From contig CM097885.1 in NCBI GenBank assembly GCA_044892525.1, positions 13,642,001-13,706,000 on the forward strand: a stretch of 64,000 nucleotides of DNA. Reading direction: 5' to 3'. Both the position numbers and the translations under genes were made by a program. This document shows, one piece after another, positions 2,315-62,100 of the stretch. Origin of the DNA: Schmidtea polychroa. Lineage: Eukaryota. Below the pieces are notes generated by a model that was not told the origin of the DNA, did not search any database, and saw nothing but the letters and a program-made list of their open reading frames with translations. Each line of letters begins with the position of its first letter. Within the stretch, counting starts at the first letter, position 1.

Positions 2315-28911
<26,597 letters not shown>

Positions 28912-30543: not shown

Positions 30544-30900
30544 CATGAGTTATTGGGCATAAATTGTCGGGAGCCGCAAGAGCATTTACATTTTAATACT
30601 AAAACTATTAGAAAAAATGTCAGCTAAACGACCGACTGAAGGTACTTAACGAGCAGGTCCCGAAAATGGCAGGACATGGGTCCGTCCCAAGGCTTTGCAG
30701 AAAAGTACAGCTCAAGCAACAAGGGACTCGGAAGCATCAGTACTTTATCGGCCAATACATAGTCGAAAAGAGTGATGACAAAGATGGTGAGACAACTACT
30801 GGACCTGAATGCACCGCCTACCTCCAACTCTCGAATGATGATCAATTGGAGAAAAGCGGTAAATTACAATAAGTCGAAATTTATAACGAACCTAACATTT

Positions 30901-30918
30901 TGGTGAGCCTGACGTGAT
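30901..30918 (+). promoter_or_regulatory. Primer binding site, tRNA-Trp-like
   Basis: TGGTGAGCCTGACGTGAT, two mismatches from the canonical Trp PBS TGGTGACCCCGACGTGAT, 3 nt after the LTR-terminal CA. Confidence 0.7.
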
Positions 30919-33199: not shown

Positions 33200-33662
33200 A
33201 ACTTACTGACAACATTTGAATGTAGTAATCCCAAACTATCTCGGATCTATTCGCTAGTAGATGCAATTGAGTGCAAAGAGGCGTATCCGGAGAAAGTTCA
33301 TCAAGGTGAATAGGTGGAATATTACTTATATCAGGAAAACGAGTTCTATAGAACCAGATAAAGGAATGTAGAGTTCAGAGAGCCACGTTTGAATATTATT
33401 TCGTAAGCCAAAGCTGTTTGGCTTTCTATCAGCAACATTAATCTCAAGGCCGGTAAATATTTTGCCAGAAGACTGTCTTGACGCATTTTGAAAAGGAAGT
33501 GTGAGAACAGATAATGAAGTGTCGATCTCGGCGGAAATTGGAAAAATGTTAGGAATAACGATTACTCGAGGTGGAACAATTGCCTCGGAAAGAACTTGCG
33601 AAGGAAGAAAGAAATTTCGCGGTAGCAATCTAGTTGATTTTGTGGAAGATATCAAAGACTAG
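33200..33662 (+). pseudogene. Envelope glycoprotein-like relic (chuvirus-G/gB-type N-terminal cysteine pattern)
   Basis: TFECSNPK...YSLVDAIEC...YLYQE...KECRVQR...ILPEDCLDAF*KG...GGTIASERTCEG; stops and frameshifts. Confidence 0.5.
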
Positions 33663-41452: not shown

Positions 41453-42877
41453 CACATATCATACGCCATAATAAAATAAAATCTTTAATTTACAACAACA
41501 ATTAATGTTAAATTATATTAAACAAATTTAAACAAGATATCGTAAATATGATTGAAAATTTAATTTAAGTTGATTTATTTTAATATATTTTTAATTTATT
41601 TTAATTGAAATTATGCTAAAATGATGTTTATTCTGATACGTTTTTATAGTATGTTAAAAATTTCATTGATTTCTAAATTTATTTCTAGAAAAAAGAAAAA
41701 TATTTTATTCAAAAACCCAAGGCTGTTTTCAATATGCCGTACATATATTAACTCAGAAGCATCTATTTTGACACATTTCTAAGCAATGTCTTAATATACT
41801 TAACTTAACAATTATTTTAATATTAATGCTGGGGTTGGAGTGTTAAATTACCTAAATAATTTCTCTAATAGCTATACATAAAATATTTCTATTACTTAGC
41901 AGCTGTTGCTAGGCAATGTTAAAATTGCAACAGCAAAATGTGACCTCCATTTCCGGAACTGCTAAAATTTTGATGCGCACTGAACTCACATACTAATGTT
42001 ATAAGGTTTATGGCTGTCTTACTCACCTTCTCTTCTATGATTTACTATCATCTTCTAAAAATATAACTATTCCTAATCAGTCAGAAAACGTCTCATATTT
42101 AATTTACAATAAAAGCATAAAAAAGCAATAAAAGTTTTATTTTCTGCACCTTAAAGGAATTTTCATGTTTGTCCAATGGTTCAAGCTTCATTTCTTTGAT
42201 GGCGACAATTCATTTCAATCTTCTTAGGCTTGTCTTTTTTTCCCCAACAAGTGTATTGAATGTGAATAGTGGGCTTCAGAATAACTTCTTCATCGGCTAA
42301 AACAACTCTTCTTCAGAATAAGCTCAGAATTGAATTATGGGACAAGCTATGCAACCGTGTCTTCGAAATTTGTTCACTTTAATTTGGAACTTGCGAATCT
42401 TCAATTTATAGAATTATTTCGTATTGTTCAATTATCTCAGAGAAATATGGTAGTCCCAATACTTTCTGAAGTAAACGATTGATTGCAAAGAAGTTAACAA
42501 ATAATCCTATTCTTATGGTAATTTAGATCCCATTATGACTTCTACACTTATGTAGAATATTTTGTTGGTGATAATCCAGTAGTGTGGTTATATACCCAAC
42601 CAAAACAGCCCCCCAACAAAAACATGCCTCCAAATCACTTAAGCTATTAGAAAAACAACCTAAAACTTATACTTTTATAGTATTTTAACCCTATATTTTG
42701 AAAACAACCACCCTTAATGACTCTAACTGTTTTAATCTTTAAAGCCTCAAACTCAAAAGCTTCAAACTAAAAAGAGAATAGAAAAGAAAATGGCATTATG
42801 AAAAAGCTAGAGGGCTATTTGATCTTTATCAGATTATTGATTTTAAATTATATAAATTAAAAAATAAATGAAAAATA

Positions 42878-44531
42878 TGTTGGTTACTTAGGGGTGTGTC
42901 CTTTTTACAATTTAAAATACGTTAGGGGTAATCATAACCGTTCGACTCTTTCCTAAGCACCTCCATAACTATTGCAATTTAAACCATTTGTGTACCCATG
43001 GCGACGACCATGTTGGTACTGTACACAAAGGTGAAAAAACAATGAGCAGGTGAGCTCTATTACTAAAACTACTCCCCATTGGATTTTCTTTTCGGGTTCT
43101 AGACTGCCGATAGAAGGTCTTACGTCCTTATTCACTATATAGGCTATTTTTGGATCGTTGTTGGTCCTCAATTACGGGTATTTCTAATTGTTCTCTTATA
43201 AAATTTTGTGCAGGGATCCGTCCTTATTTCCCAGCTAGTAATTATTATTCTACACTTCCTACAATATTTAAATTATCCTTTGAAAAATTTGCGCAGGGAT
43301 TGGCCCTTATTTTCAAGTTAATCCACACTTGCCATAATATTTAAATTGTTCTTCAAAGATTTTGAGCAGGGATCTGCCTGTGTTTCAAATCATGAGCTGT
43401 CGGAAAAATTACATAAATCTAACTTTATCCATCTTCAACTGGTCTCAACTATTCCATCTTTACTCCTAACTCACTTATGTCTATAAAACATAAAGGTGAC
43501 TAAGCCACCTACATTGTCTAAATCTAAATAAAATTCTAAACGGCCTAAAATGACATTACACTCCCTAATCATTCCTATCACTATCACTGTCCTCTAACTC
43601 GATGGACTCAACCGGCGAAATATCTGCCGAACAACAGCACGTAGTGCCGCCCGTCCACAAACTTTTCCCCAGCCCAGACCATCGACACAATCAACAAATA
43701 ATATAATTGAATTCAATGAGACTATGAATTAGAATAAATGAATTTAAACCATTAAAAAGGATCACTAAAGAAAATTGAACCGAGACATTTATTAATTAAA
43801 TTTATTAATTAAAATACTTCATAAAAATTACAGAAAACAATAACAAATAAATTACCACATCCACGTTGGCATAAAATCGAAACTGAGAGTTCTGCAAATT
43901 AAGTGGCTATGTTGAAAAAAGAGAGAGTGTTTTTCAATTGAATTTGTGATCAGTATTTATACTGATTTTGAATGCGTACTCTATCCAATCAGAGTGCGAG
44001 AATTATTGAATTGATTTTGCACACATGCATGAATGTGTGTAATTATTTATTTGTTTTAATTTCATAAATTTAATTAATTTCTTATTTAATTTTTATTAAT
44101 TTTAATTTTACAAATTTTATAATTTAACTAATTTGAGTTATATTAATTTTTATTAATTTAAACATTTTTATTCTTTAAATTTAATAAGTTAAATAACCAT
44201 TTAATTCTATAAACTTTACAATTTACATAATGCTAATTAATTTTATTATTTTTGACGATTTAATTTTTATATTGTTTAAATAATTTTCAACTAATTCCAT
44301 TTTATATTTTATTATTTTTCTATTTAAATTTTTAAGTGTTGAATTTTCTGTTAAATTTATTTATCTCTTTATTCTATTATACGGGGTTTATTGATTCTTA
44401 ATGTGTGATGTAGTTTATTTTATTTATTTTAAATTAAACCTTGGTCATAAATTTTTTCAACTTTGCGGTTTTTGTGTTAGGTATTTTCGATCGATTAAAA
44501 CAAACTCTCAGTTCTCGTTTTCAGCCCAACA
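42878..44531 (-). repeat. 3' LTR (1654 bp)
   Basis: Same length as 56625-58278 and no differences seen on spot checks; constant offset 13747. Confidence 0.95.
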
Positions 44532-45558
44532 AATCACTCCGGGACCCGTTAAAATTGCGTCCCGCAATTCTGTTAGACATACGAATTTCCCAGGTCATAG
44601 TCTATTACATTCCCATTAACCTATAAACATACTATAATAGTTTAAGACACGTTAGAATTCAATTAGCAGAAAAAGGTCTAAGCTCAAATTCAAGCAGTTG
44701 TCACATACAGTGACTGGTCATAATACACATACATACTGATACAGTGTCCAAACTCAAGTACGAGTCATATGCAAAAGTTTTATTTCTGGATCAATTCTTC
44801 AGTTGGTTGTTTCTTATCTTTTCTGGGTTCGGTTTTCAATCTTTCGGCTGGGTTTTGTAGGCATGTTTGATTCCTGTTGTTGATTTTCATATTAGCTCGT
44901 AATACTTACTGAAGATCATAGGATTCTCTCTATCGGGGTTTGACTGTTTTCCCATATTCTCTTTGGATTTTTAGGTTGGGATTCTGATTTTCTGGATCAT
45001 TTGATGGTATTGACGGACCTTGCTCCAGGGTTTTCGGAACTTTTGTTCAACTGGGTGACTTGACACATTGATTTTTCTTTTGGTTTTTCTTGGTGGTTTT
45101 GTTTACGGTATTGCTCTTATTAAGGGGTTTTCTTCCTCTAGTGGGTAACTTGAATTATTTTCGATTTTGGTCTAAGTTCGCTTGATTTGATTAAGTTTCT
45201 AATGTCACTGGGTCTGTGACTTTCGTCTCATTTATCAGGATCTTTTACCGTTCTTTGTTTAGGGGTTCCAAATTAGGTATTATTTTTAGATATTCGTTTA
45301 ACTCATTCTTTCTAGGTTTGCATCTTTATCTTTCTTCTGGATTTATATTCTTTCTTCTCATTTGAGCCTCTGTTCTCCTTTACCATTGTAAGGGTTCAAA
45401 TTTTGTATTTTTCCCAACTGATTACTTGATCCATTTCTATTTATACATCGATCTTTTGCCACATTATACATCAATTTATACCTATACATCTAGTACATTT
45501 AGTTTGCTATTTATACATCAATTTTTACATATGTTCACTTCCTTTTTACTATTTTCAT

Positions 45559-48120
45559 CTACACTTCCACGTTAATTTCCACTACATCCTTTGGACTACC
45601 CTTCTGCTTTTCCTTGGCTATCATCATTTGTGTCTCTTCTGCCATATCTTTACATTTTTCTTGATTACTCGTTATTTCATTGATTCTTAATTCGGCTGAC
45701 CTTGCTTCTTCTTTTAGTCGGAGTATCGTTGTCTTGAGTACTTCATTTTCTCTTGTTCTGTTTTCTGCAACCTTTCTCCATATCATTATCAATTCATCCT
45801 GTCTCGTTTCTTTTACAACTAGTTCCATTATTAACCTGCACTGTTCCACACATTGTCTCCTCAATTCCTCGTATGCGTTGGGTTTCACCTGTTCCTTCAC
45901 GTCATTTGTCCGTCTCTGTACATTTGTCGACTGTTGTTTTATTAGCATTGGAGATTGGTGTTTTCTTATTTCTGGCTGATAAATTCTGTTTTCGACATAT
46001 TTTTTATTGTTCTGTTCTGTGACGTATTCTCGTGACTGATCTCTCACTGGGTTTGTCCCATTCGGACAGTTATTGACTAAATGTCCAGTTCTTTTACATT
46101 CGTAACACCTCTTTATGCGGCGATATTTATTTTTTCTGTGCTCATTTTTCTGACAATTCCCATACGTCTTATCGAAGAACCGATAGCGCTCATTGTGTCC
46201 TTGTGGTTGGTATTTGTTCCAGTAATTGTTTGTACTCGCGTCCCATTCGATATCTGGTTCGCACCCGCTTTCAATTTTTAACGTGTTTATGTCATGGTAC
46301 TTTTCTTGCGTTTTTTCATTATTTCGTTTTTCGTGATTTTCGCCATTCTTCGATTCGCGCTTTTCCGGGATTACTGCAATTCCAACCTGACTATCGATGC
46401 CGGTATAATCTCTCTGATTGTCCTCAAATGTTTTGATGTTTTGATGGTCTAATATTACCTGTTCCAGTTTTTCAATTATTTCGCTTTCGATCCTTGAGTC
46501 CGGAATTTTTTGTAAATCTATTTCGTTGCTCGTTATCATTCTCATCATATTGATTTGTATTACTCTTTTTTGTTCTCTTTCCCATATTCCTTTTATCTTT
46601 TCCCTCTGGTTGTCGTTGTTGGTTAGTCTCATTATATCCAATTTTAAAAGTTCTTCCTTTCTCGTTTTCCAATATTTTTCTTCTCTTCTTGCCTGAGGTT
46701 CTTTTCGTTTACTCCATCTTTCTTCCGCTTCTCGTGCTTCCGCGATCTGTAAGGTATTCCATTCTCGTTGTTGTGTTGTTCGGATATTTTGAATTTGTAA
46801 TGTGCCTCCCACACATTGTAATACATTTATTCTTGATTGTTGTTTTCCTTCCGCTTGAAACTGATAATCGATCATGTTACTGCACAGTCCTGTGAGAATT
46901 GTTATTTGATTTTGCATTTCAGCTAGTTGCTTTGCTGACGTATCCCTATTGTCACTCCGTTGTTGGTTTCTTTTATTCGTACATGCAACTGCTAGATGGT
47001 CTCCTTGTCCGCACGAAAAACATTTTTTGGATACTCCACATCTTACTGCGGTATGTCCTTTCTTACCGCAATTCCAACATCTTCTTTGCCCATGACATTC
47101 ATCGAGCCAGTGTCCTTGCCTCTTGCAGTTATTACAAAACTTTCCAATGTTTCCATTATTCGACCTCTTGCTTTTGTTGTCATTTTCGTTCCTTCGATTA
47201 TTGTTGTTATGACTCCACTGTCTGTGATGCTGGGGTTGATTATCTGCGATAGGCCTCCTACTTGGTGGTTGTGTTACTTTGGTATACATTTCGCTTACAT
47301 TCGCTGCCTCTACTGCTTCGTCCAGCGTCTTGCAGATTTTGCATCCGACTACACCTTTAATGTCATCTCGTCGCAATCCTTTTACAAATTGGGTTACTAG
47401 TTGTGTTTCCATATCCTTTTCACTGAATAGCGGTTTGGCTAGACGTCTTAGTGCGCTTGCGTACAGTATATTTGATTCATTCACTGCTTGTCCTCGATTG
47501 AAGAATTCTAGAAATTTGTATTGTGCATCTTTTGCTTCTCCAAATGTTTTTATCAGAGCTTCCTTAACTTCTTTCCAGGTTTTTAGTGGGGTTGTACACT
47601 CTTTTATTCCGACGTACCAATTAAACGCGTCGTCTGCTAGATATAGTGGGAGTCTTCTCACTATCATTTCGTTTGTCCATTTTAGAGCATCGCAATAAGA
47701 TTCAAAATGTTGGATAAAGTTTGATAGTTTGTTCGGTTTTCCGTCGTATTTTTCGCCATTATATTTTCCCTGGAAATTGGGTATCTCCATTTCACTGAGT
47801 CTCTTGTTGATCGCTTCCATTTGGGCTGTTGTATCTACCATCTTTAATTGTATTCTTTTTCCGTTTGTGTTTTCTTTTATTAGGTTTATGTCACTTTTAT
47901 TATTTCTGTTTTCAGATAGAGTTTTTCCTTCCTGAGGTTCTGATACGCGTATTACGCTTCTTGGCCGATTGTTTTCGAAATCCTTTTCACTGCTTCCTTT
48001 TATGGATCGACCTTTGGTCTTTGAGATGTCTTTTTGATTTTGCTTTTCGATTTCTTGTGCTTGCGTGGGTTTAATAGTTCGTCTTCCTTTCTTTGCAACT
48101 TTTAATTCTTCTTCTTTCAA
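45559..48120 (-). CDS. gag: Gag-like protein: capsid domain, three tandem plus one distal CCHC zinc knuckles, C-terminal coiled coil; first in-frame ATG at 47841
   Basis: YDGKPNKLSNFIQHFE...LPLYLADDAFNWY...WKEVKEALIKTF...QFVKGLR; CNNCKRQGHWLDEC, CWNCGKKGHTAVRC, CFSCGQGDHLAVAC, CYECKRTGHLVNNC. Confidence 0.92.
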   Translation of the reverse strand: MKEEELKVAKKGRRTIKPTQAQEIEKQNQKDISKTKGRSIKGSSEKDFENNRPRSVIRVSEPQEGKTLSENRNNKSDINLIKENTNGKRIQLKMVDTTAQMEAINKRLSEMEIPNFQGKYNGEKYDGKPNKLSNFIQHFESYCDALKWTNEMIVRRLPLYLADDAFNWYVGIKECTTPLKTWKEVKEALIKTFGEAKDAQYKFLEFFNRGQAVNESNILYASALRRLAKPLFSEKDMETQLVTQFVKGLRRDDIKGVVGCKICKTLDEAVEAANVSEMYTKVTQPPSRRPIADNQPQHHRQWSHNNNNRRNENDNKSKRSNNGNIGKFCNNCKRQGHWLDECHGQRRCWNCGKKGHTAVRCGVSKKCFSCGQGDHLAVACTNKRNQQRSDNRDTSAKQLAEMQNQITILTGLCSNMIDYQFQAEGKQQSRINVLQCVGGTLQIQNIRTTQQREWNTLQIAEAREAEERWSKRKEPQARREEKYWKTRKEELLKLDIMRLTNNDNQREKIKGIWEREQKRVIQINMMRMITSNEIDLQKIPDSRIESEIIEKLEQVILDHQNIKTFEDNQRDYTGIDSQVGIAVIPEKRESKNGENHEKRNNEKTQEKYHDINTLKIESGCEPDIEWDASTNNYWNKYQPQGHNERYRFFDKTYGNCQKNEHRKNKYRRIKRCYECKRTGHLVNNCPNGTNPVRDQSREYVTEQNNKKYVENRIYQPEIRKHQSPMLIKQQSTNVQRRTNDVKEQVKPNAYEELRRQCVEQCRLIMELVVKETRQDELIMIWRKVAENRTRENEVLKTTILRLKEEARSAELRINEITSNQEKCKDMAEETQMMIAKEKQKGSPKDVVEINVEV

Positions 48121-48984
48121 TAAACTTGGTTCTATTATTAACTGTTTTGATCTGGTATGCTTTGTTATTGGTTCAATATTTCTGAACTTGGCTTAATTGT
48201 TTGACAATAACTTCTAGTTGGTTGCTGATACTTGGCTGTTGGCTTGTTTGATTGATTTACCTGAATAGAAAAATATCACTTCTCCCTATCGTTTATTATA
48301 TTTATAAATTGTAATATATATATTATATAGTGCAATTGCAATATTTTTACTTTGGTTTCTTTGGGTGCCGGCATATCTTAATATTCATTTCGTCGTTAGT
48401 TTTGTTTACACATTGGTTCTCAAATTCCTACGTAATTTTTTCGATCCTTCTTATTTAATTCACACTCCTTTTCTTCGTTTCTATAGTTTTCTCTACTTTA
48501 ACTGTCTTTTTTTCCTTGGCTTATCTCTATCTATTGACTTACATTACTTGTATTCTTGTTTCTATCTTAGTTTTCTTCATTGATGTTGTCTTTATTCTGT
48601 TCATGTTTGTTTCCGATTTTTATAATTTCCTCCGTTTACCTTATTGGTCGTCCTTTATATCTCTCTTTTTCCATTATCGTTGCCAATTTTTAGACTTATT
48701 TATTATTCTTGACTCGGTTCTCCATTATTCATTCTATATTCTCATCTATTCTCCTACACGGTTGTCTATTTTCAATTCGTTTTTCGTCTTTTTCCTTCAC
48801 GATCTTATTTATTTTCAGTTATATATCTGTCAATGACTTCGTATTCTCATTTATATTCCCGTCTATGTTTCTTTCTAGGTACTCATCTATATTCTCGTTT
48901 ATCTTTCCTTTTACCTCATCTATATTCACGTCTGTTATTTCCGTTCCTATTCGTAGCCATTATTCTCATTTATATTCGTATCTC

Positions 48985-49340
48985 TTATTCGCATCTATTA
49001 TTCGCATCTATTATTCGCATCTATTATTCGCATCTATTATTCGCATCTATTATTCGCATCTATTATTCGCATCTATTATTCGCATCTATTATTCGCATCT
49101 ATTATTCGCATCTATTATTCGCATCTATTATTCGCATCTATTATTCGCATCTATTATTCGCATCTATTATTCGCATCTATTATTCGCATCTATTATTCGC
49201 ATCTATTATTCGCATCTATTATTCGCATCTATTATTCGCATCTATTATTCGCATCTATTATTCGCATCTATTATTCGCATCTATTATTCGCATCTATTAT
49301 TCGCATCTATTATTCGCATCTATTATTCGCATCTATTATT
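48985..49340. repeat. 13-bp minisatellite (GCATCTATTATTC), ~27 copies
   Basis: Direct observation; near-perfect units, no spacers. Confidence 0.95.
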
Positions 49341-50034
49341 TGTCTACTGGTTATCTTATGAATTTAGTCTTTAAGCTCTAATTGTTTCTCTTTACTTCGC
49401 TTTGTCTTTTTCCAGTTACTTGGTCTTCCTTTTATTTCTCCTGCATGCTTCTTTTTACTACTCTTCCAGGTTTTCCCCACTCTCCTGACTCTGGATGCGA
49501 AACACTCGCACTGGTCGATCTCCGATCGTGTGGTGATCAGTCACACGCAGAGATGTTCCAGTATATGCGATGGGCCCTGTTCCACATCTTTCGTCAGGAC
49601 AGTTGGTACTTTCCTGGTCTTATCCGTACTACGCTGAGCGTAGCTCATAGGTTGTGGATGTCCTAAATCCTAACAGAAAAATTTTCCTTATTCATTTGCT
49701 CTCAATTTTCATAATACTTTATTCTCATTTTTACGTCGTGCTCTTAATCTACTTATCTCGATTACTCTTGGTCCTTCTTCATTATTCTAAATATATCCAC
49801 GTCTCTTGTCTAGTTGACGTCTTATTGCTATCGCTTTTACTCTTACCGCTTTGGTTGACTTGTTTCTCGTTAATATGCTCACTATTTCCTCAGGCAGATC
49901 CCTCTCGCATTACTCGTAATATTAGTTTATCCATTTTATTCGTTACCCTTCTATTCGTTAATGGTTTATTTACGAAACATCCCTGCTCAATTTTGTAATT
50001 TATCGCTTCCGTATTTGTACATTTTCCTCAGCTT

Positions 50035-50075
<41 letters not shown>

Positions 50076-52867
50076 GACCTCTCACTGATTTCCCCGTCAT
50101 AATGTTTCTCATTTCGTATATTTTACTTTTTCAAAATTTGTTTGTTGTTTTTCTGTTTATGGGCCTCGTTGTTCCTCTCCCTGTATTTTAAATTTTTACT
50201 TATTTCCGCATCTATTTGCTATTTTACTTTTGGCGCGTAACTTTGATTGGTCATTTATTTTCATTATCTCATTTAATTGTTTATCTATGTCTACATATAC
50301 ACGCATATACTTATACATATACCCTTATCCATAAACATATATTCATATACATATATCCACCTATATCTGGATATCTACATCTGTACGCATTTCTCCCTAG
50401 CTGTTCCTGGAGTGGTTGATATTATTGTTTCTATTATTTCTGAATTTATTCAAATTTATCATTGAAATTCCCACGATTGTATCTTTTTGTTTCGTAATAA
50501 AAGTAGACAGTCCGTTCGTTTTTCATTATTGTAACTTTTTGCTCCATAGTAAAAGTAGGCAGTATGTTCGTTTTCCATAACTAAAACTTTTGTTCAATGT
50601 TTCTAATTTGTCTCATTTTTGTTAGTGTCTCTTGTTATTCTAATTTTCCGTGTCATGATGTTAAGCTTTCACTTTTGTTCTATTATATTGTATCGCGTTT
50701 CATTTTATATTTGTTGTTTCTCGTAATTTTGATTTTTCATTCAAATGTCTTTGACCTTGCTTTTTTTTCTGTGAATTTGTTACTTATTGTTTCCTGTTTG
50801 TTCATTTCGTTTTGTGTTTTCCTTGTCATTTTATCGTGTTTATTTATTCACATTCTATTTTGATATATGTGCGCTCTTCATTTTCTGTCAATCATGTTTT
50901 TGTATAATTTTTCCCGATTGTTCCTATTATTGCTCATGTCCATTTTGACTTTCATATTGGTCTCCCGTTTGTTGTTATCTTAGTTTGTAGTTTGTTCTCA
51001 TTTTCCTCCGCATCTTCGCCAAATGTCGTCCCCGACATTCATTATTTGATTTATTTATTATCTTGTGTTCTCTCGGTTCTCACTATTTTGTTCTCGTGTC
51101 CTCTCTACAATATTTGCCAAACGTCCATTTCTCTGATTGATTTTCCTTACTCTTAACTAAGCGTAGATTTTGATGTTTTGATTTTTCGCATTATTTTATC
51201 TTTGTTTATGGTGATCGGTCCTCTACTTTTATTATATATCATTTTGGTTGGGGTGTATACACCGATATATACAATTATTTATATACAATTAGTCCTCTTT
51301 TTGGCACTCAGTTCTGCCATTACCGTCTCTTTTCAATGTTATGACCATGCTAATAGTTCGTTGTTTTTCTCCTTTACGCAACAGAAACCACCGGTACAAG
51401 TGTTCTTCTACTCATTCCACCTCCATCTCGGTATATTTTACTCCTCATCTTATAACAATTTTCAATGAATACTATGCTGGATTTGTTATAACTATTTGTA
51501 CTTCATCTTCAGCTTACTGCATTTTCTTTTTCCCGTTTCCTTTTTACGTCTGATATTCTCCGTTACATTCTGATCATTTCTTTCTCTCCTTGATTTCCCC
51601 AGCTATTCCTATTAGTTCATTTACTTGCATTTGGCTTTATCATTTGATTTGTTCTATTTCTCTTCCACTTAGTTCAATTTTTCTTCTCTGGTCCTTGATT
51701 ATTCTTTCACGAACAAATTCATTGTTCAAAGTTTCGATTAGATTGTTCCTCCATGAGATTCCTTGCATGTTATTTGCGATAGTATGGCGCTTTTCTGCTT
51801 CCATACTTTTCCTGTGGTGGTATTGGGATTGATTTCCATTGTGATCCGTTTTATCCTATTAATTCGCCTACATTGATTCCTAATCTTTTATCTGAATTTT
51901 ATTTCATCTTACTTCCCGAAGTTATATACTAATTATACCGCGCTGATATATATACATATATTTTTATATAATCATATACCTTTATATATTCATTGTTCAC
52001 ACTATATATAGTCATAACCCTTTCTATGTATGTGGGTTCGTAATTCGTGATACTTTCTAGATCTCTCCCCACTGGTCTTAGTTTAGTGTTCTGTACTCTT
52101 TCATTTACTGTATATTTCACCCGTCTGGTTCTAATTGTTTCCCATTCTCTATCGTTGACGTTGGATAATTTTTCATAGTTCGTTCCGGTTATTAATATGA
52201 GCATCGTACGTATAACTGTCTTGTATATTCATATTACTTTGGCTAACCTTGGGCTTCTTGGTTTCTTTCGCTGGATCATTTGTCGATATCCACCACGTTA
52301 TTCCGGTGTCTTGTGTATTTATTTTCATTAATTTCTGTATTTATTTTGTTAACTTCCTGAGCCGTTCTACATAAATTTTAAAATTCATTTTCTACGTATC
52401 CTTGATGTCTGTGATGTTCGCCTATTTTGCAAAGTTTTTCACTGCCTTTTAACTTAGTTCTCGTGCCTTTGTCACGAAGATTTTATTTCGATTTGTTTTT
52501 GCTCTATTTTTGTACCGTGATTTTATTTTTTCGCAGTTATTCTCGATTGTCTTTGGTTCAGATTTATTTTTCGAGTTACCGGCAAGTTTAGTTCTTGTTT
52601 TTGTTCTTTTACTTAACGCTTTTGTTCATTTTGTTCATTTCTATTCGTGATGTTTCGATGTCTTTTCTTGTCTTTACTTTCTTTTACTTTCAGTAGAATC
52701 TGTTGACTCGCTCGGTTTCGTCTGGTAAACTCATCTCTTTATCTATAATGTTGTTCGTCTCAGATTCACATTTGCATAAGCTAAGACATGGTTATCATTT
52801 GCTTTATTTATCGTTTGGTACTTTGTTATCTGTCGAGTTTTATCGTATTTTTCATTTGGATTTTTAT

Positions 52868-53104
52868 TCAATCGTTTTTATGGTTTGGTCTTTCCATTTT
52901 ACCGATGCATTTAACATCCTTGGGTACTCTACCCTTGGGTTGGTATGCGTAGAAGGTATTACCTGTAGGGTATAATTGGTTTAAATAGTCCTTATCATAC
53001 ACTGTATGTATCGACAACTCAATACCAGAATCATATATAGCTTGCTTTTTCCTAAACCCCCTAATCCATACATTCTTATATATCATTTGCATATAATCAT
53101 TCAT
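52868..53104 (-). pseudogene. Retropepsin-like aspartic protease relic
   Basis: VWIRG...AIYDSGIELSI...LYPTGNTFYAY...VKCIGKM resembles the retroelement protease pattern with a DSG motif. Confidence 0.5.
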
Positions 53105-54301
53105 ACCATTACATATTCATTTATCAGTATATTCTCAAAAAGTTCCCCTTCTAAAGCCGCTATCATTCCCTCGGTTTATCCATTCACTAATCAACGTAAT
53201 AACAATTAACATTTAATAATTCATTGACATAAATATTATCAAGAGCCTGCATAACCAATCCTCAACCAATTGCTGGCCCATCATTCAACCATTCAACCAA
53301 ACAAGGACAAATTATCAAGGAGAAGACTTATTTATTTTCATAAAATTAGCTTAGCTTACTTATCCTATTGTCAAACCCTGAATTTACTAAAATCCGGATG
53401 TAACGATATTCATACATTATTCTTTTGTTCTGGGCGTATCCAATCATTTTTAGCAAAGAACATTCCGTCTATCTTACAAAATAGAGTAATTTTGTCGAAA
53501 CCAATTAATTACGATTTGCTACTCCGTATAATTTATAATTTCCTAATAAATTCCTCAATGCACTGCTAGCAATTTCCTCGAAACAGATTATTAATTCCAT
53601 ACACGCGATAATTGATTTTTGATTACGCCTAAGATTTATTTGCAAACAACCGCCTGTAACACAATATCATGATTTTATAGGAGTCAATAATGCACCATTC
53701 GATCAAGCTCCAATCACGAGCACTCGATGTATAGAAGAGTGTCAATTAAAATCATTGCCAAGATGCGCACCAACCGAAATATATTTGTAAAAACTTATAG
53801 TTGCAAGTGTCTTGTCTTACCGGTGTATCTACATGCTCTCCGGGTGTATGATTTCACCCGCCCTTTCGTCTTTACTATCATCATAATTTGTAAATAATTA
53901 CACCGACCGGCAGCCGATCACCATCGAATGGGCACTGATTTGGGTTTTTTATAATATAAACCTTAGCTTACCTATAATAAATGTGCGTATGAATTAGCAA
54001 TGTGAAATTAAATTGGCAATTATATTATACAAAAATAGGAAACAAAATCGATGTTAATAATATATATATTATAAACAAGCACAAACAAACACGGCTCACA
54101 AGACACATGCAACAGGATATTGATTCAACAAGGGCATTTAATCAGCTGAAATTTTCCAATTTAAAATTAACAACAACAAAAAAAAAATGTACGAGGATGT
54201 CTGTAGTCTCATCAGAATCGACTATTTCGTTTCGAGAAATTCATAGCCAAATGTGTAAGCTTTTCATTTAAACTTCAGACATTTTATAAAATCTATATGG
54301 A

Positions 54302-54427
54302 ATGACCATTGCTGACAACGAAAGAATCATCAAATCCATGGCGGATGGCCATGATTATCACGAATCAGGCCGCATTCTCGGAATCCAACGGAATACAATA
54401 ATCGGCACCATAAATAAAATCTACTAA
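54302..54427 (+). pseudogene. Short HTH ORF resembling a Tc1/IS630 transposase N-terminus
   Basis: MTIADNERIIKSMADGHDYHESGRILGIQRNTIIGTINKIY*. Confidence 0.4.
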
Positions 54428-56599
54428 CATTTTTAGAATAGAAATTCCACTACAGTTGTTTAGGACACTTGTGATATTTTATTACAGACAAGGCAGACCA
54501 ACATATAGAGTCAAGTCAATAGTACTAAGACGCATAAATCAACACTACTTATACAACACACGAATTTATAATGGAATATTTTACGCATATATAAAAAATT
54601 TTAAAATTACCACTATCCTGAGATTAATAACACCAAATAAATTGATGGTTCTGACCAGTGGACATGATTTATTAATACATTGATTATCCCATTACTGACT
54701 AATAATAATTATTTAAGTGCATATAAATTTGTATACAAGTACAAAATGCCATAGTAACATAATTAAAAATCATTTTCATACATGCAAATTTGACAATTTT
54801 CTGTTTTATTTTAACCAATTAAATCAAAAATAGAAAGCCATACATAATTTTATTAAAAACTGAATTTTAAAATACTTATAAAACATACTTGATTTAATTA
54901 GTAAAGTCCATAAAATCAATAAAAAATATATATAACCATTCCAACTATACTGCACTGAAAAGTCGCTCAAAGTTTTACTCGACATCGACAAAAGCAACGA
55001 AACGAACCGAGAGAAATTGCAATGAATCGAAGAACTAATCAAATTTCCAGCATCATTTTCAAAAGTAAATGTTCGAATTATTATTCCAATTGATAGACAT
55101 GGTAAAATCAATAAAAACGTATTCCATTTTCGTTCTGTCAATCTCATATCATTTCAATTTCATCTGAACATTACAGCAACAATCCAAATCCAAAAGAAGT
55201 GAAATCTAAAAACGAAAAACAAATAACTGTAAAACATCTCGTTTCTGATTGGCTGATTTTCATGAACGTAGAAAACCAATTGCACACGCATTGTACAGAA
55301 CACGCATGCACACATGCCATGCCATACCGCCGGCACACACACTATACAATTATATATTCAATCTAGACTGTCGTAGAGCTTGAGTAGTAAAATCCGGAAT
55401 ATTTTATTACTACACACACATACCCATTTTTCAGATATCACCTCAAACCGACAACAGACAGCAGGTGTTGTCGGCAAATTTTTTCAGTCTTTAATCTTGA
55501 TTTTGAATCATTCAACAACGCCAGCGGTAGACTTAAAAGCACTGAGAAAAAAAATCATTGACTATGCACCACCACACCAGTCGTCAAATACCAACAAGCT
55601 ATCGCTGGAAGCACAGTTACAATCAACTCTCACAGCCGCCCAGGAATTATAAACACGTTTATACCGATTCCAGATACTTCACAACCAATTCAACTCCATT
55701 CATTGACATAAGGCTAATTTCGACTCAAATATGCAAGTTCAAACAAAAAAAACATTTCAACACTGCTCTGCAAAACAAATCATCATGTACACAATTTTCA
55801 GGCAACTACTCAAACATGTTCTATTACAACATTGTGTTGGCATTTTCTCAAGTGTTCTGGTTGCTATATTTTTTCTTTTTGGTCGATTATTTTTTACCAG
55901 CAATTTGTCAGTGGACGATGACATGATTTATCGAATAAGTTTAAACCTGTTTAACCGACTGCTCAACAAATAAATGTGATAATTCTTGTCAGCAAATGTA
56001 AGCACAACACAGATATAAATCACATCCACACGCAAGCCAACCGAAACAAGCACAGCGTGCACGTTTGAGTTTCTTGCAAATAGACACTTTTCTGGTTCAT
56101 CAAATAATGTTTTAGTTACCCTATAAGTTTAGTGATTTTATAAGTTCTCCGAGGTTTATTTAGCATTATTATTCATCAATATCTCACTAAAAATATGCTA
56201 ACAAAGTCATTCATAGAATTGTCTAAAGTGTACAAATTCATTGATTGTAATGTGCATGCAGTTGAATAAAATTGGATACATAAAGGCAATAATAGCTCTG
56301 TATTTCAAGTTTATTTTCTATTCATTTTTAACTACGATTTTCTTGATGCATATAAAGTCAATTATAATAATGTGATATAGTGAACCTGTGAGTTATAAAT
56401 AATGAAATCATCCTGGCTTTTAGTAAATTATAAAGTTATTGATATAAAAGTGCTGAAATAATTGATTGAATTGTGGTATGATCTTGATATTAATTAAATA
56501 CGAAAATGTCAATTTATCTAATCAATTAGAATCGTATTTATTTTGTTGTAAATATTTCGTCACTTTCACTTGTATATTTTTGTCAGATTTTTTGATTGA

Positions 56600-56617
56600 A
56601 TCCCGGCTGAGCCCCCA
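56600..56617 (-). promoter_or_regulatory. Primer binding site, tRNA-Pro
   Basis: Minus strand TGGGGGCTCAGCCGGGAT versus canonical Pro PBS TGGGGGCTCGTCCGGGAT, 7 nt downstream of the 5' LTR end. Confidence 0.85.
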
Positions 56618-56624
56618 AAAATCA

Positions 56625-58278
56625 TGTTGGTTACTTAGGGGTGTGTCCTTTTTACAATTTAAAATACGTTAGGGGTAATCATAACCGTTCGACTCTTTCC
56701 TAAGCACCTCCATAACTATTGCAATTTAAACCATTTGTGTACCCATGGCGACGACCATGTTGGTACTGTACACAAAGGTGAAAAAACAATGAGCAGGTGA
56801 GCTCTATTACTAAAACTACTCCCCATTGGATTTTCTTTTCGGGTTCTAGACTGCCGATAGAAGGTCTTACGTCCTTATTCACTATATAGGCTATTTTTGG
56901 ATCGTTGTTGGTCCTCAATTACGGGTATTTCTAATTGTTCTCTTATAAAATTTTGTGCAGGGATCCGTCCTTATTTCCCAGCTAGTAATTATTATTCTAC
57001 ACTTCCTACAATATTTAAATTATCCTTTGAAAAATTTGCGCAGGGATTGGCCCTTATTTTCAAGTTAATCCACACTTGCCATAATATTTAAATTGTTCTT
57101 CAAAGATTTTGAGCAGGGATCTGCCTGTGTTTCAAATCATGAGCTGTCGGAAAAATTACATAAATCTAACTTTATCCATCTTCAACTGGTCTCAACTATT
57201 CCATCTTTACTCCTAACTCACTTATGTCTATAAAACATAAAGGTGACTAAGCCACCTACATTGTCTAAATCTAAATAAAATTCTAAACGGCCTAAAATGA
57301 CATTACACTCCCTAATCATTCCTATCACTATCACTGTCCTCTAACTCGATGGACTCAACCGGCGAAATATCTGCCGAACAACAGCACGTAGTGCCGCCCG
57401 TCCACAAACTTTTCCCCAGCCCAGACCATCGACACAATCAACAAATAATATAATTGAATTCAATGAGACTATGAATTAGAATAAATGAATTTAAACCATT
57501 AAAAAGGATCACTAAAGAAAATTGAACCGAGACATTTATTAATTAAATTTATTAATTAAAATACTTCATAAAAATTACAGAAAACAATAACAAATAAATT
57601 ACCACATCCACGTTGGCATAAAATCGAAACTGAGAGTTCTGCAAATTAAGTGGCTATGTTGAAAAAAGAGAGAGTGTTTTTCAATTGAATTTGTGATCAG
57701 TATTTATACTGATTTTGAATGCGTACTCTATCCAATCAGAGTGCGAGAATTATTGAATTGATTTTGCACACATGCATGAATGTGTGTAATTATTTATTTG
57801 TTTTAATTTCATAAATTTAATTAATTTCTTATTTAATTTTTATTAATTTTAATTTTACAAATTTTATAATTTAACTAATTTGAGTTATATTAATTTTTAT
57901 TAATTTAAACATTTTTATTCTTTAAATTTAATAAGTTAAATAACCATTTAATTCTATAAACTTTACAATTTACATAATGCTAATTAATTTTATTATTTTT
58001 GACGATTTAATTTTTATATTGTTTAAATAATTTTCAACTAATTCCATTTTATATTTTATTATTTTTCTATTTAAATTTTTAAGTGTTGAATTTTCTGTTA
58101 AATTTATTTATCTCTTTATTCTATTATACGGGGTTTATTGATTCTTAATGTGTGATGTAGTTTATTTTATTTATTTTAAATTAAACCTTGGTCATAAATT
58201 TTTTCAACTTTGCGGTTTTTGTGTTAGGTATTTTCGATCGATTAAAACAAACTCTCAGTTCTCGTTTTCAGCCCAACA
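56625..58278 (-). repeat. 5' LTR (1654 bp) with CCAAT (57732-57736) and TATAAATA (57708-57701)
   Basis: Adjacent to the PBS; TATA and AATAAA motifs are oriented on the minus strand. Confidence 0.95.
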
Positions 58279-58815
58279 AATAGTAAAACTGCTCTGAGAG
58301 GACAGTGGTATTTTTTTTTTTTTTTCACTGTCCTCTCAACAGTTTTTTTGATCCGGATCATTTTTGTTTTATTCAACCTCTTTCGTTTATCGAATCTCTT
58401 CCAATATACAAGCTGGCCAGACTCATACATCAGAATCAATCCGATAATAGCAGCACACCTTATTATTCGCTTCTCGCTCGAATACGATTTCATCGGCGTT
58501 TTAAGTGTGCTGCTCGAAAGTACAAATGAATTCGAAAGCGAATTCGAAAGAGGTCCGAAAACAACTGAGAAATAAATGTGCACATTAAAGAATCGATCCG
58601 GGGGTGTTCGAAAGACAGGTGGCGATAATTACCGGTTCGCCACCATCACCCGTTTCAATATTTTTTTTTCATATTTATGTTTAAAAAATAATTAATTAAT
58701 AAAAAAATAAAATAAAATAAAATAAATGAAATAAAATATACAAGTACTTTATAAATATAAGATACCCACACTATTTTCAATATTATTTTCAAATTTTTAA
58801 TATTATTTTATGTTG

Positions 58816-58899
58816 AAAAAAAACTAACCTCAGATGTGATTTGAACCGCTATCCATTTGAACCACTGTGCCAGTCTATTCCCACTGCGCCATCAAGGTT
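58816..58899 (-). ncRNA. Putative Pol III tRNA-like small RNA, copy 1
   Basis: A box TGGCGCAGTGG (58891-58881), B box GGTTCAAATC (58847-58838), partly complementary ends AACCTT/GAGGTT, T8 terminator. Confidence 0.55.
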
Positions 58900-59048
58900 T
58901 GAATTTTTGTCATTTTTTTAATTTTTAATTTATAAAAAAATAAAATAAAATAAAATAAATAAAATAAAATATACAAGTACTTTATAAATATAAGATACCC
59001 ACACTATTTTCAATATTATTTTCAAATTTTTAATATTATTTTATGTTG

Positions 59049-59131
59049 AAAAAAAACTAACCTCAGATGTGATTTGAACCACTAGCATTTTGAACCACTG
59101 TGTCAGTCTAGCCCACTGCGCCATCAAGGTT
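59049..59131 (-). ncRNA. Putative Pol III tRNA-like small RNA, copy 2
   Basis: A box (59123-59113), B box (59080-59071), T8 terminator; within the RNA-like unit, differences from copy 1 lie between the boxes. Confidence 0.55.
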
Positions 59132-59198
59132 TGGATTTTTTGTCATTTTTTTAAATTTTTATTATAAAAAATGAATAATATAAATCTTAAAAAATAAA

Positions 59199-62100
59199 AT
59201 GAAAACAGGGTATCCAATAAAAAATTTTTTTCTAAAAATGAATTGTAATATTTGCAATAAAGTTTTTAAAAATAAAACTGGATTAATTTCTCAGTTAAAA
59301 TCGAAAGCTCATTTATTAAAAGAAAATAATCTTAATGATACAAATTCAAAACTTTGTCTTAAATGTAAAGGAAGATTTCTACATTCTGGATATAATAAAC
59401 ATTTTGAAAATTGTATCGGGAAAAATAGAGAAATATTTACATGTCCTCATTGTAACTTTTCAACAAAACTAAATTTCTATTATTTAGAACATATAAAAGA
59501 ATGTAAAAATAAAAAACAAAATTCTGACGATGAGGAATGTCATTCAGAAGGAGAGCCTGATCATGTTGAAAGAGAAAAATATAACTGGGATAATTTTAAT
59601 CATATAGATGAATTTCAATTAAAAATTAATGGGCCTGCAACTCCTGGAGAATATATAAATAAAAATAAAAAAAATATTAAAAATTCTTTCACTGAAGCTT
59701 TAAAAAATTATAAACCGACAAGGTATAATGTTATAAAATATAAAATTATAATCAAAGCAAAATACTGGCGAGGAGCAGAAGAAAAGACAACACCCTTAGA
59801 TGTTGAAATTGGAATACCTTTTAAATATTTATTTTCAATTAAAGGATTTGATAAAACCATCAAAGAAATAATTAAAGCAGCAGAAGCAAAACAAGAGGAA
59901 GTAGAAAATGAATTAGGAGATTCAAACTTAGTATTCAACTCTTTCCAAACTTTAGTGATTGATTATTGGAGAGGATTACCACCCAATCCTAAATCTTATA
60001 TTCCTACACCCTTTAAATCTAAAAATGTTATAAATGTACAGAATAATGATAACAAATGTTTCATCTGGTCAATACTTGCACATTTACATCCTCAAGCAAC
60101 AAATCCCCAAAGAGTTTCAAAATACAAACAATATGAAAATGAATTAATATTTCCCAAAGGATTCAAACACCCAATGAAACTAGAAGACATTCCAGAATTT
60201 GAAAAATTAAATAATCTTAAACTTAATATTTATGAACATGTTATAGGGAAAGAAATTATTCCAATTTATATTTCAGATAGTGGAACCAAGGATAACGGAG
60301 CACAGGACAACGAGATATATCTTTTAATCTTGGAACAAGAAAATAATCAACATTATGTTTTAATAAAAAACTTTCAAGCTTTTACATCTCCAGAGAATCC
60401 AACTAGTGGAGGAGGAACATGTAAAAGATGTCTTCATTATTCAACAACTAAAAACTCTATGATTAAACATACAAGATTTTGTGAAAAAGATGATCCAGCT
60501 TTAATTAAAATGCCTAATAATTCCAAGATGTATTTTAAAAACTTTTCAAATTTACTACAAACAGTTGGAGTTCTTTATGGTGACTTTGAATCTATAAACC
60601 ATAAACAAGATTTGGTTTATCAATATTTAAAAATAATAGAAAAAAATAAACTCATGGATTTATGGAACTCCTCAGGAGAGAAGATGAAACCAGAGAGGAT
60701 GAAAGCCTTTCTAAGAAAAAGAAATAAACCTAATAGTGTTAAAAAAACTAAACAATTACCATCTGCTTATAAATTATTATTTAAAAGTAATTATCCTGAA
60801 CTCATAGAATCTAGAGAATATTCAATTCTAGGAGGTACCCCTGAAGAAGTCTTGAATCATTTTACTAAAAATATAAATGATCTAGAACATGAAATATTTA
60901 AAATATTAAAAACAAAGTATCCTCAAAATATTTCTAATCAACAACAACAAGAATATGAAAATACTTCCAACTGTTGGATGTGTAAACAGAATATTCTTCC
61001 TGATGAAAAAGTTATAGATCATGATCATTTAAAAAAGGAAAATAATTATCGAGGAGCAGCTCATAAAAATTGCAATCTTAATTGCCATACTCCTAAATTT
61101 ATACCTGTTATATTTCATAATCTTTTTGGATATGACATACATCTATTTATTAAAAACCTCGCAGCAAATGCTAAAAACTCTTTCAAAGTTATCGGCTTAA
61201 CAAAGGAAAAATATAAATCAATTGAATATGGAAAATTAAAATTTATAGACTCGTTAAACTTTCTCCAAATGTCTTTAGATGCAGTAGCAAAAACAATGAA
61301 ACCAGAAAATTTTAAAATCACTCGAGAATTCTTGGAAAAAAATAATATTCCTCTAGAAGAATATCCTACATGTTTAGCAAAAGGAATATATCCTTATGAC
61401 TATGTTGACTCGTTTGAAAGATATAATGAAACAAGTCTTCCTAGCCAAGAAGATTTCTATTCACAACTTCAAAAAAATCATATTACAAATCAAGAATATT
61501 CTCGAGCAAATAAAATGTGGGAATTATTCAAGTGTAAAACTTTAGGAGAATATACAAGTATGTATTTATCCTTGGATGTTTATATTCTAGCAGATTGCTT
61601 TGAAGAATTTACAAACTCTTTTGTTCTTAAACCTTATAATTATATAACTGCACCCTCTTTAGCTTGGGATACTATGTTATATACCATTTGGACTTCAAAT
61701 ATAGAAGATGCTGATAAAATTATAGATCTTTTAACTAACCTCGATATGTTTAACCAAATTAAAACAAACATTAGAGGAGGAGTCTTTTCAGTAATGGGGA
61801 ATGGAGAAATAAAAGCTAGAAATGCAATAACTACTAGCCGAAGACTATCTAAACACCCTGATGATCCATATATGAAAATTAACAATGAGGAATTAAAAGA
61901 ATTATTAGAAACAATGAAAAATCCTATATTTATACTTTATATAGATGCAACAGCTTTATATTCAGGAATTATGACTCAATTTTTACCAATGGGTGATTTC
62001 ACTGAAATAGAGAACCCAACAGATGACCTTATGAAAGAAATACTTTCAACATCGAAAGATTCTCCAATAGGTTACTTTATAGAATGCGACCTCGACTATC

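What the first reader, a model, noticed from the sequence alone, without database searches (positions are those of the whole stretch)
42878..58278. Large, young LTR retroelement whose only intact gene is Gag
Seen: 15.4 kb with apparently identical 1654-bp LTRs, a clean TSD and a tRNA-Pro PBS, so it transposed recently. The 12-kb interior has one intact ORF (Gag with four CCHC knuckles and a coiled-coil tail) and no RT, RNase H or integrase motif that I could find. About 8.5 kb of mostly non-coding, strongly A-biased sequence separates PBS and gag. Known: gag-only non-autonomous elements (TR-GAG type) are described in plants, and giant Gypsy elements (Burro) in planarians. Inference: a parasite family that keeps its own capsid and borrows Pol from an autonomous partner.
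Basis: partly seen in the sequence, partly recalled or inferred. Interest (0 to 1): 0.75.

Follow-up and report, generated by a model that had tools for sequence, protein, structure and literature searches.

The report
Gag-only jumping gene in a flatworm
This is a young, multi-copy 15-kb retrovirus-like jumping gene in what is likely a planarian flatworm; it carries an open gene for its coat protein but no detectable copying enzymes, so it likely borrows them from a related element, an arrangement already known from plants and fish.

Summary
The element (minus strand) has 1654-bp LTRs with 0 differences, a 4-bp target duplication, a PBS-like site and one 877-codon ORF. The ORF is a Ty3/Arc-fold capsid, three knuckles, then a charged tail with a fourth. 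No protease, RT, RNase H or integrase was found by six-frame Pfam or by tblastn with Pol queries, while both methods found a decayed protease in a neighbouring element. Contigs of 4 runs (3 studies) cover gag and the 1-kb stretch behind it; one listed contig joins the gag stop to that stretch, so the Pol-less 3' end is not private to this assembly. Closest Gag relatives include models with protease or integrase domains. The host is likely a planarian. Best reading: a gag-only non-autonomous Ty3/Gypsy family mobilised by a helper (0.68). The helper, the leader in sister copies and selection on gag are untested; no genome was held. Gag-only LTR families are published for plants and zebrafish; size and host are what is unusual. 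The scan noted a Pol-less gag-protease gene on other DNA, not this family.

The parts
42874..42877 (.). Target-site duplication, left copy (AATA)
42878..44531 (-). 3' LTR, 1654 bp, TG...CA ends
   Evidence: identical to the 5' LTR
44532..44550 (-). Sequence at the polypurine-tract position; not purine-rich, likely a plus-strand priming signal shared with other LTR families
   Evidence: 8 contigs of run X2 fit from 44533 on but carry another LTR end, and that bin is far deeper than its neighbours; function inferred
44551..45558 (-). About 1-kb non-coding spacer between gag stop and 3' LTR, where pol would normally lie
   Evidence: 25 stops in each of 3 frames; no Pfam or NCBIfam hit; covered in 4 of 4 runs
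45559..48192 (-). Extended Gag ORF, 877 codons stop to stop; first ATG at 47841; similarity to relatives starts at 48180, upstream of that ATG
47281..47787 (-). Capsid domain, predicted Ty3/Arc-type fold
   Evidence: Retrotrans_gag E 7.7e-4, below the curated cut-off; 36-42% identity to 9 proteins at E<=1e-30; model mean pLDDT 83.4 matching dArc, Arc, PNMA2 and Ty3 capsids
46981..47136 (-). Three tandem CCHC zinc knuckles
   Evidence: all cysteines invariant in the 8-sequence alignment A1
45562..46980 (-). Charged tail of about 470 residues with a fourth CCHC knuckle (46066-46107) and recurrent I-N-V/M motifs (46830, 46554, and at the ORF end), candidate protease sites
   Evidence: no hydrophobic segment (maximum 19-residue hydropathy 0.68); no family found; cleavage role inferred
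48193..53000 (-). A-rich non-coding leader (48% A) with a 13-bp tandem array of 30 copies at 48948-49340 and an A34 run at 50038-50071
53001..56599 (-). Non-coding 5' part of the leader, not A-rich (32% A, 37% T)
   Evidence: no Pfam, PHROG or Rfam match of note
56600..56617 (-). Primer-binding-site-like 18-mer, 7 nt after the LTR; tRNA-Pro assignment recalled
56625..58278 (-). 5' LTR, 1654 bp
58279..58282 (.). Target-site duplication, right copy (AATA)
42578..42873 (+). Insertion site, left part: high-copy repeat starting AGTAGT, likely the end of a Polinton that continues after 58282 to a DNA polymerase B ORF (59184-63518)
   Evidence: depth step and contig ends at 42577-42604; sequence; PF03175 E 1.1e-12; Polinton end motif recalled

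Best explanation
This is a recently inserted, multi-copy LTR retroelement with one open Ty3/Gypsy-type gag gene and no detectable pol, and it is likely a non-autonomous family that packages its own RNA in its own capsid but takes protease, reverse transcriptase and integrase from a related autonomous element. Shown: identical LTRs, 4-bp duplication, one ORF, no Pol by profile or tblastn search, related sequence in four runs, and one contig that runs from the ORF's end into the same 1-kb spacer. Predicted: the Ty3/Arc capsid fold. Inferred: a transcript of about 14 kb starts in the 5' LTR; Gag is made and co-assembles with a helper's Gag-Pol; the helper's protease cuts the long Gag at the I-N-V/M motifs; a host tRNA primes at the PBS; the helper's integrase recognises the TGTTGG...CCAACA ends. 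Also inferred: the family arose by loss of pol from a planarian Gypsy lineage whose Gag already had three knuckles and a long charged extension.
For: 0 of 1654 LTR differences; 95% upper bound on divergence 0.0018. Six frames read through stops gave only zf-CCHC in Pfam, while the same method found a protease at E 2.5e-4 in the decayed neighbour at 34.1 kb. Six Pol-part queries gave best E 0.16 on the element against 1e-5 on the neighbour. In one search, gag and spacer bins are covered in 4 of 4 runs from 3 studies; spacer depth is not lower than gag depth in any run; X2 contig 12 (613 nt, 8 differences) spans the stop with 150 nt of ORF and 462 nt of spacer; the share of contigs running on into unlike sequence is 0, 0.04, 0.01 and 0.14; three listed X5 gag contigs have depth 947-1073 against 34.5 for a flank contig, roughly 30-fold. 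Of 11 close relatives scanned, one model has a protease and one an integrase zinc domain, so the lineage includes pol-bearing elements. P0151 has the same Gag, three knuckles and long tail and aligns at 31% over 532 residues. The motif [IV][NH][VM][LMI] occurs 2 times in the ORF (0.11 expected) and 5 times in P0151 (0.15 expected), against 6 in 62,867 residues of distant Gags. Of the 9 displayed ORF variants, 3 of 3 in capsid and knuckles are synonymous. None of the 12 displayed indels is in the ORF.
Against: No autonomous partner was found and no genome was held. Contigs are short, cannot phase a whole element and drop rare variants; only 32 of 28,530 pieces, 24 of 1,632 loose ends, 40 of 642 variant sites and 12 of 57 indels were displayed. 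Only one displayed contig bridges the gag stop by 31 nt or more on both sides, and none bridges spacer and LTR by that rule. Overall 3 of 9 variants synonymous does not differ from neutral (P 0.25-0.43), and 6 of 6 in the tail are non-synonymous; the capsid-versus-tail split (P 0.012) is post hoc. The cleavage motif was defined after looking at these sequences. No RNA holder is on record. The translation start is unresolved. Nine of the 11 close relatives show no Pol domain and none shows RT, and they are unnamed gene models.
Confidence: 0.68

Rival explanations
1. A recent deletion derivative of a still-present autonomous member of the same family. It amplified passively, and gag is open only because the deletion is young.
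For: Close relatives include protease- and integrase-bearing models. Gag variants only about 86-89% like the window exist in runs X1, X5 and X8 and could belong to pol-bearing masters. Displayed ORF variants are not significantly biased to synonymous.
Against: No Pol remnant at all, where a recent deletion usually leaves ends. The spacer itself has variants about 9-11% diverged (X2 contig 11, X5 contig 18), which suggests it is old. Few contigs leave the structure.
Confidence: 0.2
2. A one-off deletion in this copy, or an assembly collapse that removed pol and homogenised the LTRs.
For: Perfect LTR identity can be produced by assembly; the duplication is only 4 A/T letters; no long read spans the element.
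Against: The gag-to-spacer junction is present in a contig of a run labelled as another organism, with 8 differences in 613 nt. Spacer depth matches gag depth in all four runs. The window has no N.
Confidence: 0.05
3. The Gag serves the host, as reported for zebrafish Bik-1 and Bik-2, and the family persists partly for that reason.
For: Precedent in PMC12067270 (passages) and PMC13269885 (passages); capsid variants displayed are synonymous.
Against: No expression or function data here; a young multi-copy insertion inside another transposon fits selfish spread.
Confidence: 0.04
4. The element is autonomous, with a pol too diverged or too finely spliced to detect.
For: 8.4 kb of leader has no assigned role; the host has introns of 40-50 nt.
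Against: No RT, RNase H or integrase signal in any frame read through stops; leader stop density is close to expectation and there is no sustained three-base periodicity.
Confidence: 0.03

Closest known systems
TR-GAG elements of plants (PMC8704663 and PMC13570524, passages)
   Same: Two LTRs, a single gag ORF, no enzymes; transposition in trans was shown for one Arabidopsis element with a 562-aa Gag.
   Different: Animal host; 15.4 kb with an 8.4-kb leader; Gag extended to 760-877 residues with four knuckles. The Arabidopsis example is Copia-type and has an identified partner; here none is identified.
BHIKHARI Bik-1 and Bik-2 of zebrafish, and chicken ENS-1 (PMC12067270, passages)
   Same: Animal LTR families described as non-autonomous; Bik-1 and Bik-2 encode gag but no pol, are recently active, and their partner is inferred.
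   Different: Those are classed as endogenous retroviruses of vertebrates with shown developmental roles. This Gag matches the Ty3/Arc fold and no host role is known.
Burro / GYPSM1 giant Gypsy-like elements of planarians (PMC6431247, section 7 read whole)
   Same: [quoted passage not shown]
   Different: Half the size; no protease, RT, RNase H, integrase, env-like, BIR, MATH, BCL2 or ankyrin domain found. Sequence kinship to Burro Gag was not tested because no named Burro sequence was available.
LARDs and non-coding LTR elements with internal tandem repeats, such as the 38 Culex families (PMC3286476, passages)
   Same: Long, mostly non-coding interior with a tandem array between intact LTRs and a PBS.
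   Different: Those lack coding sequence; this one keeps an open gag.
Unnamed Gag proteins P0001-P0009, P0151 and P0152
   Same: 36-42% identical capsid domain, three knuckles in the complete models, same motif after the knuckles; P0151 has the same long charged tail and no Pol domain.
   Different: P0152 and P0008 include protease or integrase domains; none of the 8 sequences in alignment A1 other than the window's shows the separate fourth knuckle, apart from a duplicated piece in P0007.

Membership tests
Ty3/Gypsy LTR retrotransposons | Two LTRs with TG...CA ends and a short target duplication | tested here: met
Ty3/Gypsy LTR retrotransposons | Ty3-type capsid with CCHC nucleocapsid | tested here: met
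   Pfam, model and fold search, profile match to Ty3 Gag E 6e-16 (profile of 100 sequences)
Ty3/Gypsy LTR retrotransposons | Pol in the order PR-RT-RH-IN and RT phylogeny | tested here: not met
   no Pol; so it is Gypsy-derived by its Gag, not an autonomous member
Ty3/Gypsy LTR retrotransposons | tRNA primer-binding site and polypurine tract | tested here: inconclusive
   PBS-like 18-mer present but not matched to a host tRNA; no purine run before the 3' LTR
Gag-only non-autonomous LTR elements (TR-GAG type) | Single gag ORF and no enzyme domains | tested here: met
Gag-only non-autonomous LTR elements (TR-GAG type) | Structure shared by several copies at different sites | tested here: inconclusive
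   multi-copy and shared gag-spacer junction, but no second full-length copy seen; no genome
Gag-only non-autonomous LTR elements (TR-GAG type) | Mobilisation in trans by an autonomous partner | not testable with these tools
   no partner retrieved
Burro / GYPSM1 | Over 30 kb with a polyprotein of about 4,900 residues holding Gag, accessory domains, env and Pol | tested here: not met
   15.4 kb, 877 codons, no such domains
Burro / GYPSM1 | Gag with three CCHC knuckles after the capsid domain | tested here: met
   not diagnostic alone
Burro / GYPSM1 | Sequence kinship of Gag or LTR to a named Burro element | not testable with these tools
   no named Burro sequence among the hits; original paper not held
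LARD | Over 4 kb and non-coding | tested here: not met
   open 877-codon gag ORF; definition from PMC13570524
Retrozymes | Hammerhead ribozyme in the LTR | tested here: not met
   no such Rfam match among 5 weak hits at E<=5

The most novel reading that the evidence does not exclude
A long-lived satellite of the giant Burro-type planarian retroelements: it dropped all enzymes but keeps under selection a multi-segment Gag with four knuckles and cut sites for the helper's protease, builds capsids that favour its own 14-kb RNA, and uses end signals shared across many LTR families so that it can draw on more than one helper.
Probability: 0.2. Interest if true: 0.6.

Novelty: new member of a known kind. 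Interest (0 to 1): 0.38.

Why it matters
Whether gag-only LTR elements are passive wrecks or parasites that gain from keeping their own capsid is open; this family is young, abundant and variable enough for a direct selection test. Its shared end motifs give a handle for finding the helper. Pipelines that classify LTR elements by RT would miss it. If the Gag is made in planarian stem cells it would be a flatworm counterpart of the zebrafish BHIKHARI families. As a category it is not new.

Tried and rejected
No whole genome was held, so copy-by-copy comparison was not possible. Word-based protein search with the 760-residue Gag scored 7,999 candidates and found none; with alignment A2 among longer proteins, none of 5,760 at E<=1e-10. 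Related-locus scans: 0 of 588 pattern matches in metagenomes and 0 of 296 in viral contigs confirmed. The PBS pattern had no match in metagenomes. Rfam: 5 weak hits, none near its gathering score. PHROGs and NCBIfam: one weak hit each, E about 0.2. Atlas search of the tail: best score 0.84, uninformative. A decayed antisense ORF in 53-56.6 kb was considered; stop density and periodicity do not support it. A decayed polyprotein tail in the 1-kb spacer was considered; stop count is as expected (P 0.26). An in-frame fusion of gag to a post-integrase coiled tail was considered; no significant alignment to the tails of relatives. No RNA holder listed; run X8 is only guessed to be RNA, so nothing is concluded on expression. 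A 27-residue hit at 51.2 kb (E 0.002-0.007) was set aside as compositional. Summed depths were not used as copy numbers. Look-ups of earlier findings by sequence and relatives gave nothing.
Full report
Observation. The two repeats at 42878-44531 and 56625-58278 are identical over 1654 bases, which bounds their divergence at 0.0018 (95%). They end TGTTGG...CCAACA and are flanked by AATA on both sides; a 5-bp duplication does not fit. The element reads on the minus strand. An 18-mer beginning TGG lies 7 nt after the 5' LTR (56600-56617); its match to tRNA-Pro is from recall, and the window holds no such tRNA to test it. The bases before the 3' LTR are not a purine run. Of 46 stop-to-stop ORFs of 80 codons or more in 40-61 kb, the only long one inside the element is 45559-48192, 877 codons; the next two, 226 and 222 codons, lie on the other strand over a 13-bp array. 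The PBS is 8,425 bp from the ORF and the stop is 1,027 bp from the 3' LTR. The leader has two parts: 4.8 kb with 48% A next to gag and 3.6 kb with 32% A and 37% T next to the PBS.

The protein. Pfam finds four zinc knuckles (E 1.8e-8) and Retrotrans_gag (E 7.7e-4, under its cut-off). HMMER over 1.84 billion representatives with the first 220 residues gave 308 hits at E<=0.001 and 9 at E<=1e-30, 36-42% identical; these nine are unnamed records. A model of residues 1-294, built on a 100-sequence alignment, has mean pLDDT 83.4. Its best solved matches are dArc1, dArc2, Arc, PNMA2 and Ty3 capsids, 7 at E<=0.001, with low whole-chain TM-scores of 0.24-0.35. So the capsid gene is real and of Ty3/Gypsy type. 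Similarity to relatives begins at 48180, over 100 codons before the first ATG (50% over 34 residues, E 0.007-0.05), so the true start is unresolved. After three tandem knuckles comes a charged tail of about 470 residues with a fourth knuckle and no hydrophobic segment; it matches no family.

Absence of Pol. All six frames of 44532-56624, read through stops, gave only zf-CCHC in Pfam at E<=10. The same method on 28-42 kb found a protease at E 2.5e-4 in a decayed Gypsy-like neighbour. Six Pol-part queries cut from relatives gave best E 0.16 on the element and 1e-5 on that neighbour. Motif scans found no protease or RT catalytic motif. Stop density in the leader is near expectation and periodicity is not sustained. 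The spacer has 25 stops in each frame.

Copies. No genome was held. Eleven of 18 listed runs, from 5 studies, hold part of the gag region, four of them 70-73% of the sampled words. I laid four runs (three studies) on 42200-48900, which covers the left flank, 3' LTR, spacer and gag but not most of the leader. Contigs laid: 23,042, 308, 4,528 and 359. Three listed X5 gag contigs have depth 947-1073 against 34.5 for a flank contig, which suggests tens of similar copies. Spacer bins are covered in 4 of 4 runs, at depths not below those of gag. X2 contig 12 runs from 150 nt inside the ORF to 462 nt into the spacer with 8 differences; X2 carries a different organism label from X1. The share of contigs running on into unlike sequence is 0, 0.04, 0.01 and 0.14. 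At several sites all four runs differ from the window, so this copy is not the majority type in them. Limits: only 32 of 28,530 pieces, 24 of 1,632 loose ends, 40 of 642 variant sites and 12 of 57 indels were displayed; only one displayed contig bridges the stop; contigs drop rare forms, so a minority pol-bearing master is not excluded. Of 9 displayed ORF variants, 3 are synonymous, no different from neutral (P 0.25-0.43). All 3 in capsid and knuckles are synonymous and all 6 in the tail are not (post hoc P 0.012). None of the 12 displayed indels is in the ORF.

Lineage and host. An exon of the neighbouring OTU-domain gene matched 36 of 61 candidates: two unnamed proteins at 97%, then 19 named flatworm proteins at 67-73%. 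The first Atlas hit for the Gag is a 263-member cluster whose commonest phylum is Platyhelminthes (score 0.95). A planarian host is the likely reading, not a shown one; earlier notes on this genome point the same way. Of 11 close relatives scanned, P0152 has a protease, P0008 an integrase zinc domain, none has RT and 9 have no Pol domain. They look like automatic gene models, so their structure is uncertain, but the lineage includes pol-bearing elements. P0151 (1345 residues) has the same Gag, knuckles and long tail without Pol and aligns at 31% over 532 residues, though the tail alone aligns only weakly (E 0.016). Following that lead, I counted [IV][NH][VM][LMI]: 2 in this ORF (0.11 expected), 5 in P0151 (0.15 expected), 6 in 62,867 residues of distant Gags, 0 in the window's PolB. 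The pattern was chosen after seeing the sequences, so it is a lead. If these are cut sites, a protease-less element keeping them implies processing in trans.

Shared end signals. In run X2, 8 contigs fit from 44533 onward but carry another LTR end, and groups of 9-17 contigs share only about 40 bases at 43040-43080; both bins are many times deeper than their neighbours. Other LTR families therefore share short motifs at the plus-strand priming position and near the U5 end. That is where a helper should be sought.

Mechanism. Shown: structure, youth, open gag, no Pol, multi-copy status, shared gag-spacer junction. Predicted: capsid fold. Inferred: transcription from the 5' LTR, Gag co-assembly with a helper's Gag-Pol, tRNA priming, helper integration. 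I put 0.68 on a gag-only non-autonomous family, 0.20 on a young passive deletion derivative, 0.05 on a one-off or assembly artefact, 0.04 on a host role and 0.03 on a hidden pol.

What is known. Gag-only LTR elements are described in plants as TR-GAGs (PMC8704663, passages; PMC13570524, passages) and in zebrafish as Bik-1 and Bik-2 (PMC12067270, passages; PMC13269885, passages). A gag-only mosquito element appears as a reference title in PMC3286476 (passages). Burro is described in PMC6431247 (passages and section 7 whole) and mentioned in PMC11410931 and PMC8532177 (passages). The listings of searches showed no paper on a gag-only planarian LTR family. The original Burro paper was not held, and its supplement and Repbase were not seen; either may already list this family. 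Verdict: a real, new member of a known kind, unusual in size, Gag length and host. Interest 0.38.

Noticed in passing
window 42578-42877 and 58283-63518: The element is nested about 300 bp inside a likely Polinton end (starts AGTAGT; 233-bp repeats at 58692-59200 with a tRNA-like look; PolB ORF of 1444 codons). One X5 contig fits only up to 42577 and then runs on, possibly the site without that Polinton.
   Followed up: partly
window 42996-43045 and 56743-56792: Inside each LTR, about 133 bp from the U5 end, CCAACA is followed by TGG, like an embedded older LTR end and primer site; it folds into a hairpin, though the 301-nt region folds only modestly better than shuffles (z -1.69).
   Followed up: partly
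window 44534 to 42878: One X5 contig of depth 1448 joins an LTR end to an LTR start across about 12 bases: tandem LTRs or a two-LTR junction.
   Followed up: no
window 30900-35100, + strand: Decayed Gypsy-like element: gag pieces, one knuckle, a protease at 34.1 kb and a GPY motif at 35.0 kb, no RT found and no LTR pair seen.
   Followed up: partly
window 40100-41470, - strand: Compact OTUD5-like host gene with introns of about 40-50 nt, roughly 1.1 kb from the Polinton-like end.
   Followed up: partly
window 48261, - strand: A pyrimidine run ending in AG just upstream of the gag ORF looks like a splice acceptor; untested.
   Followed up: no
window 4951-6297: An (AAT)n microsatellite of about 445 copies, followed by an ARAGORN tRNA-SeC call at 6578-6664.
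   Followed up: no
window 19172-19554: Inverted repeat with 118-bp arms, 95% complementary, 147 bp apart, MITE-like.
   Followed up: no
window 15612-15977, 25068-25460, 26464-26856 (- strand): Short ORFs that look like fragments of DNA-transposon proteins (resemblance recalled, not searched).
   Followed up: no
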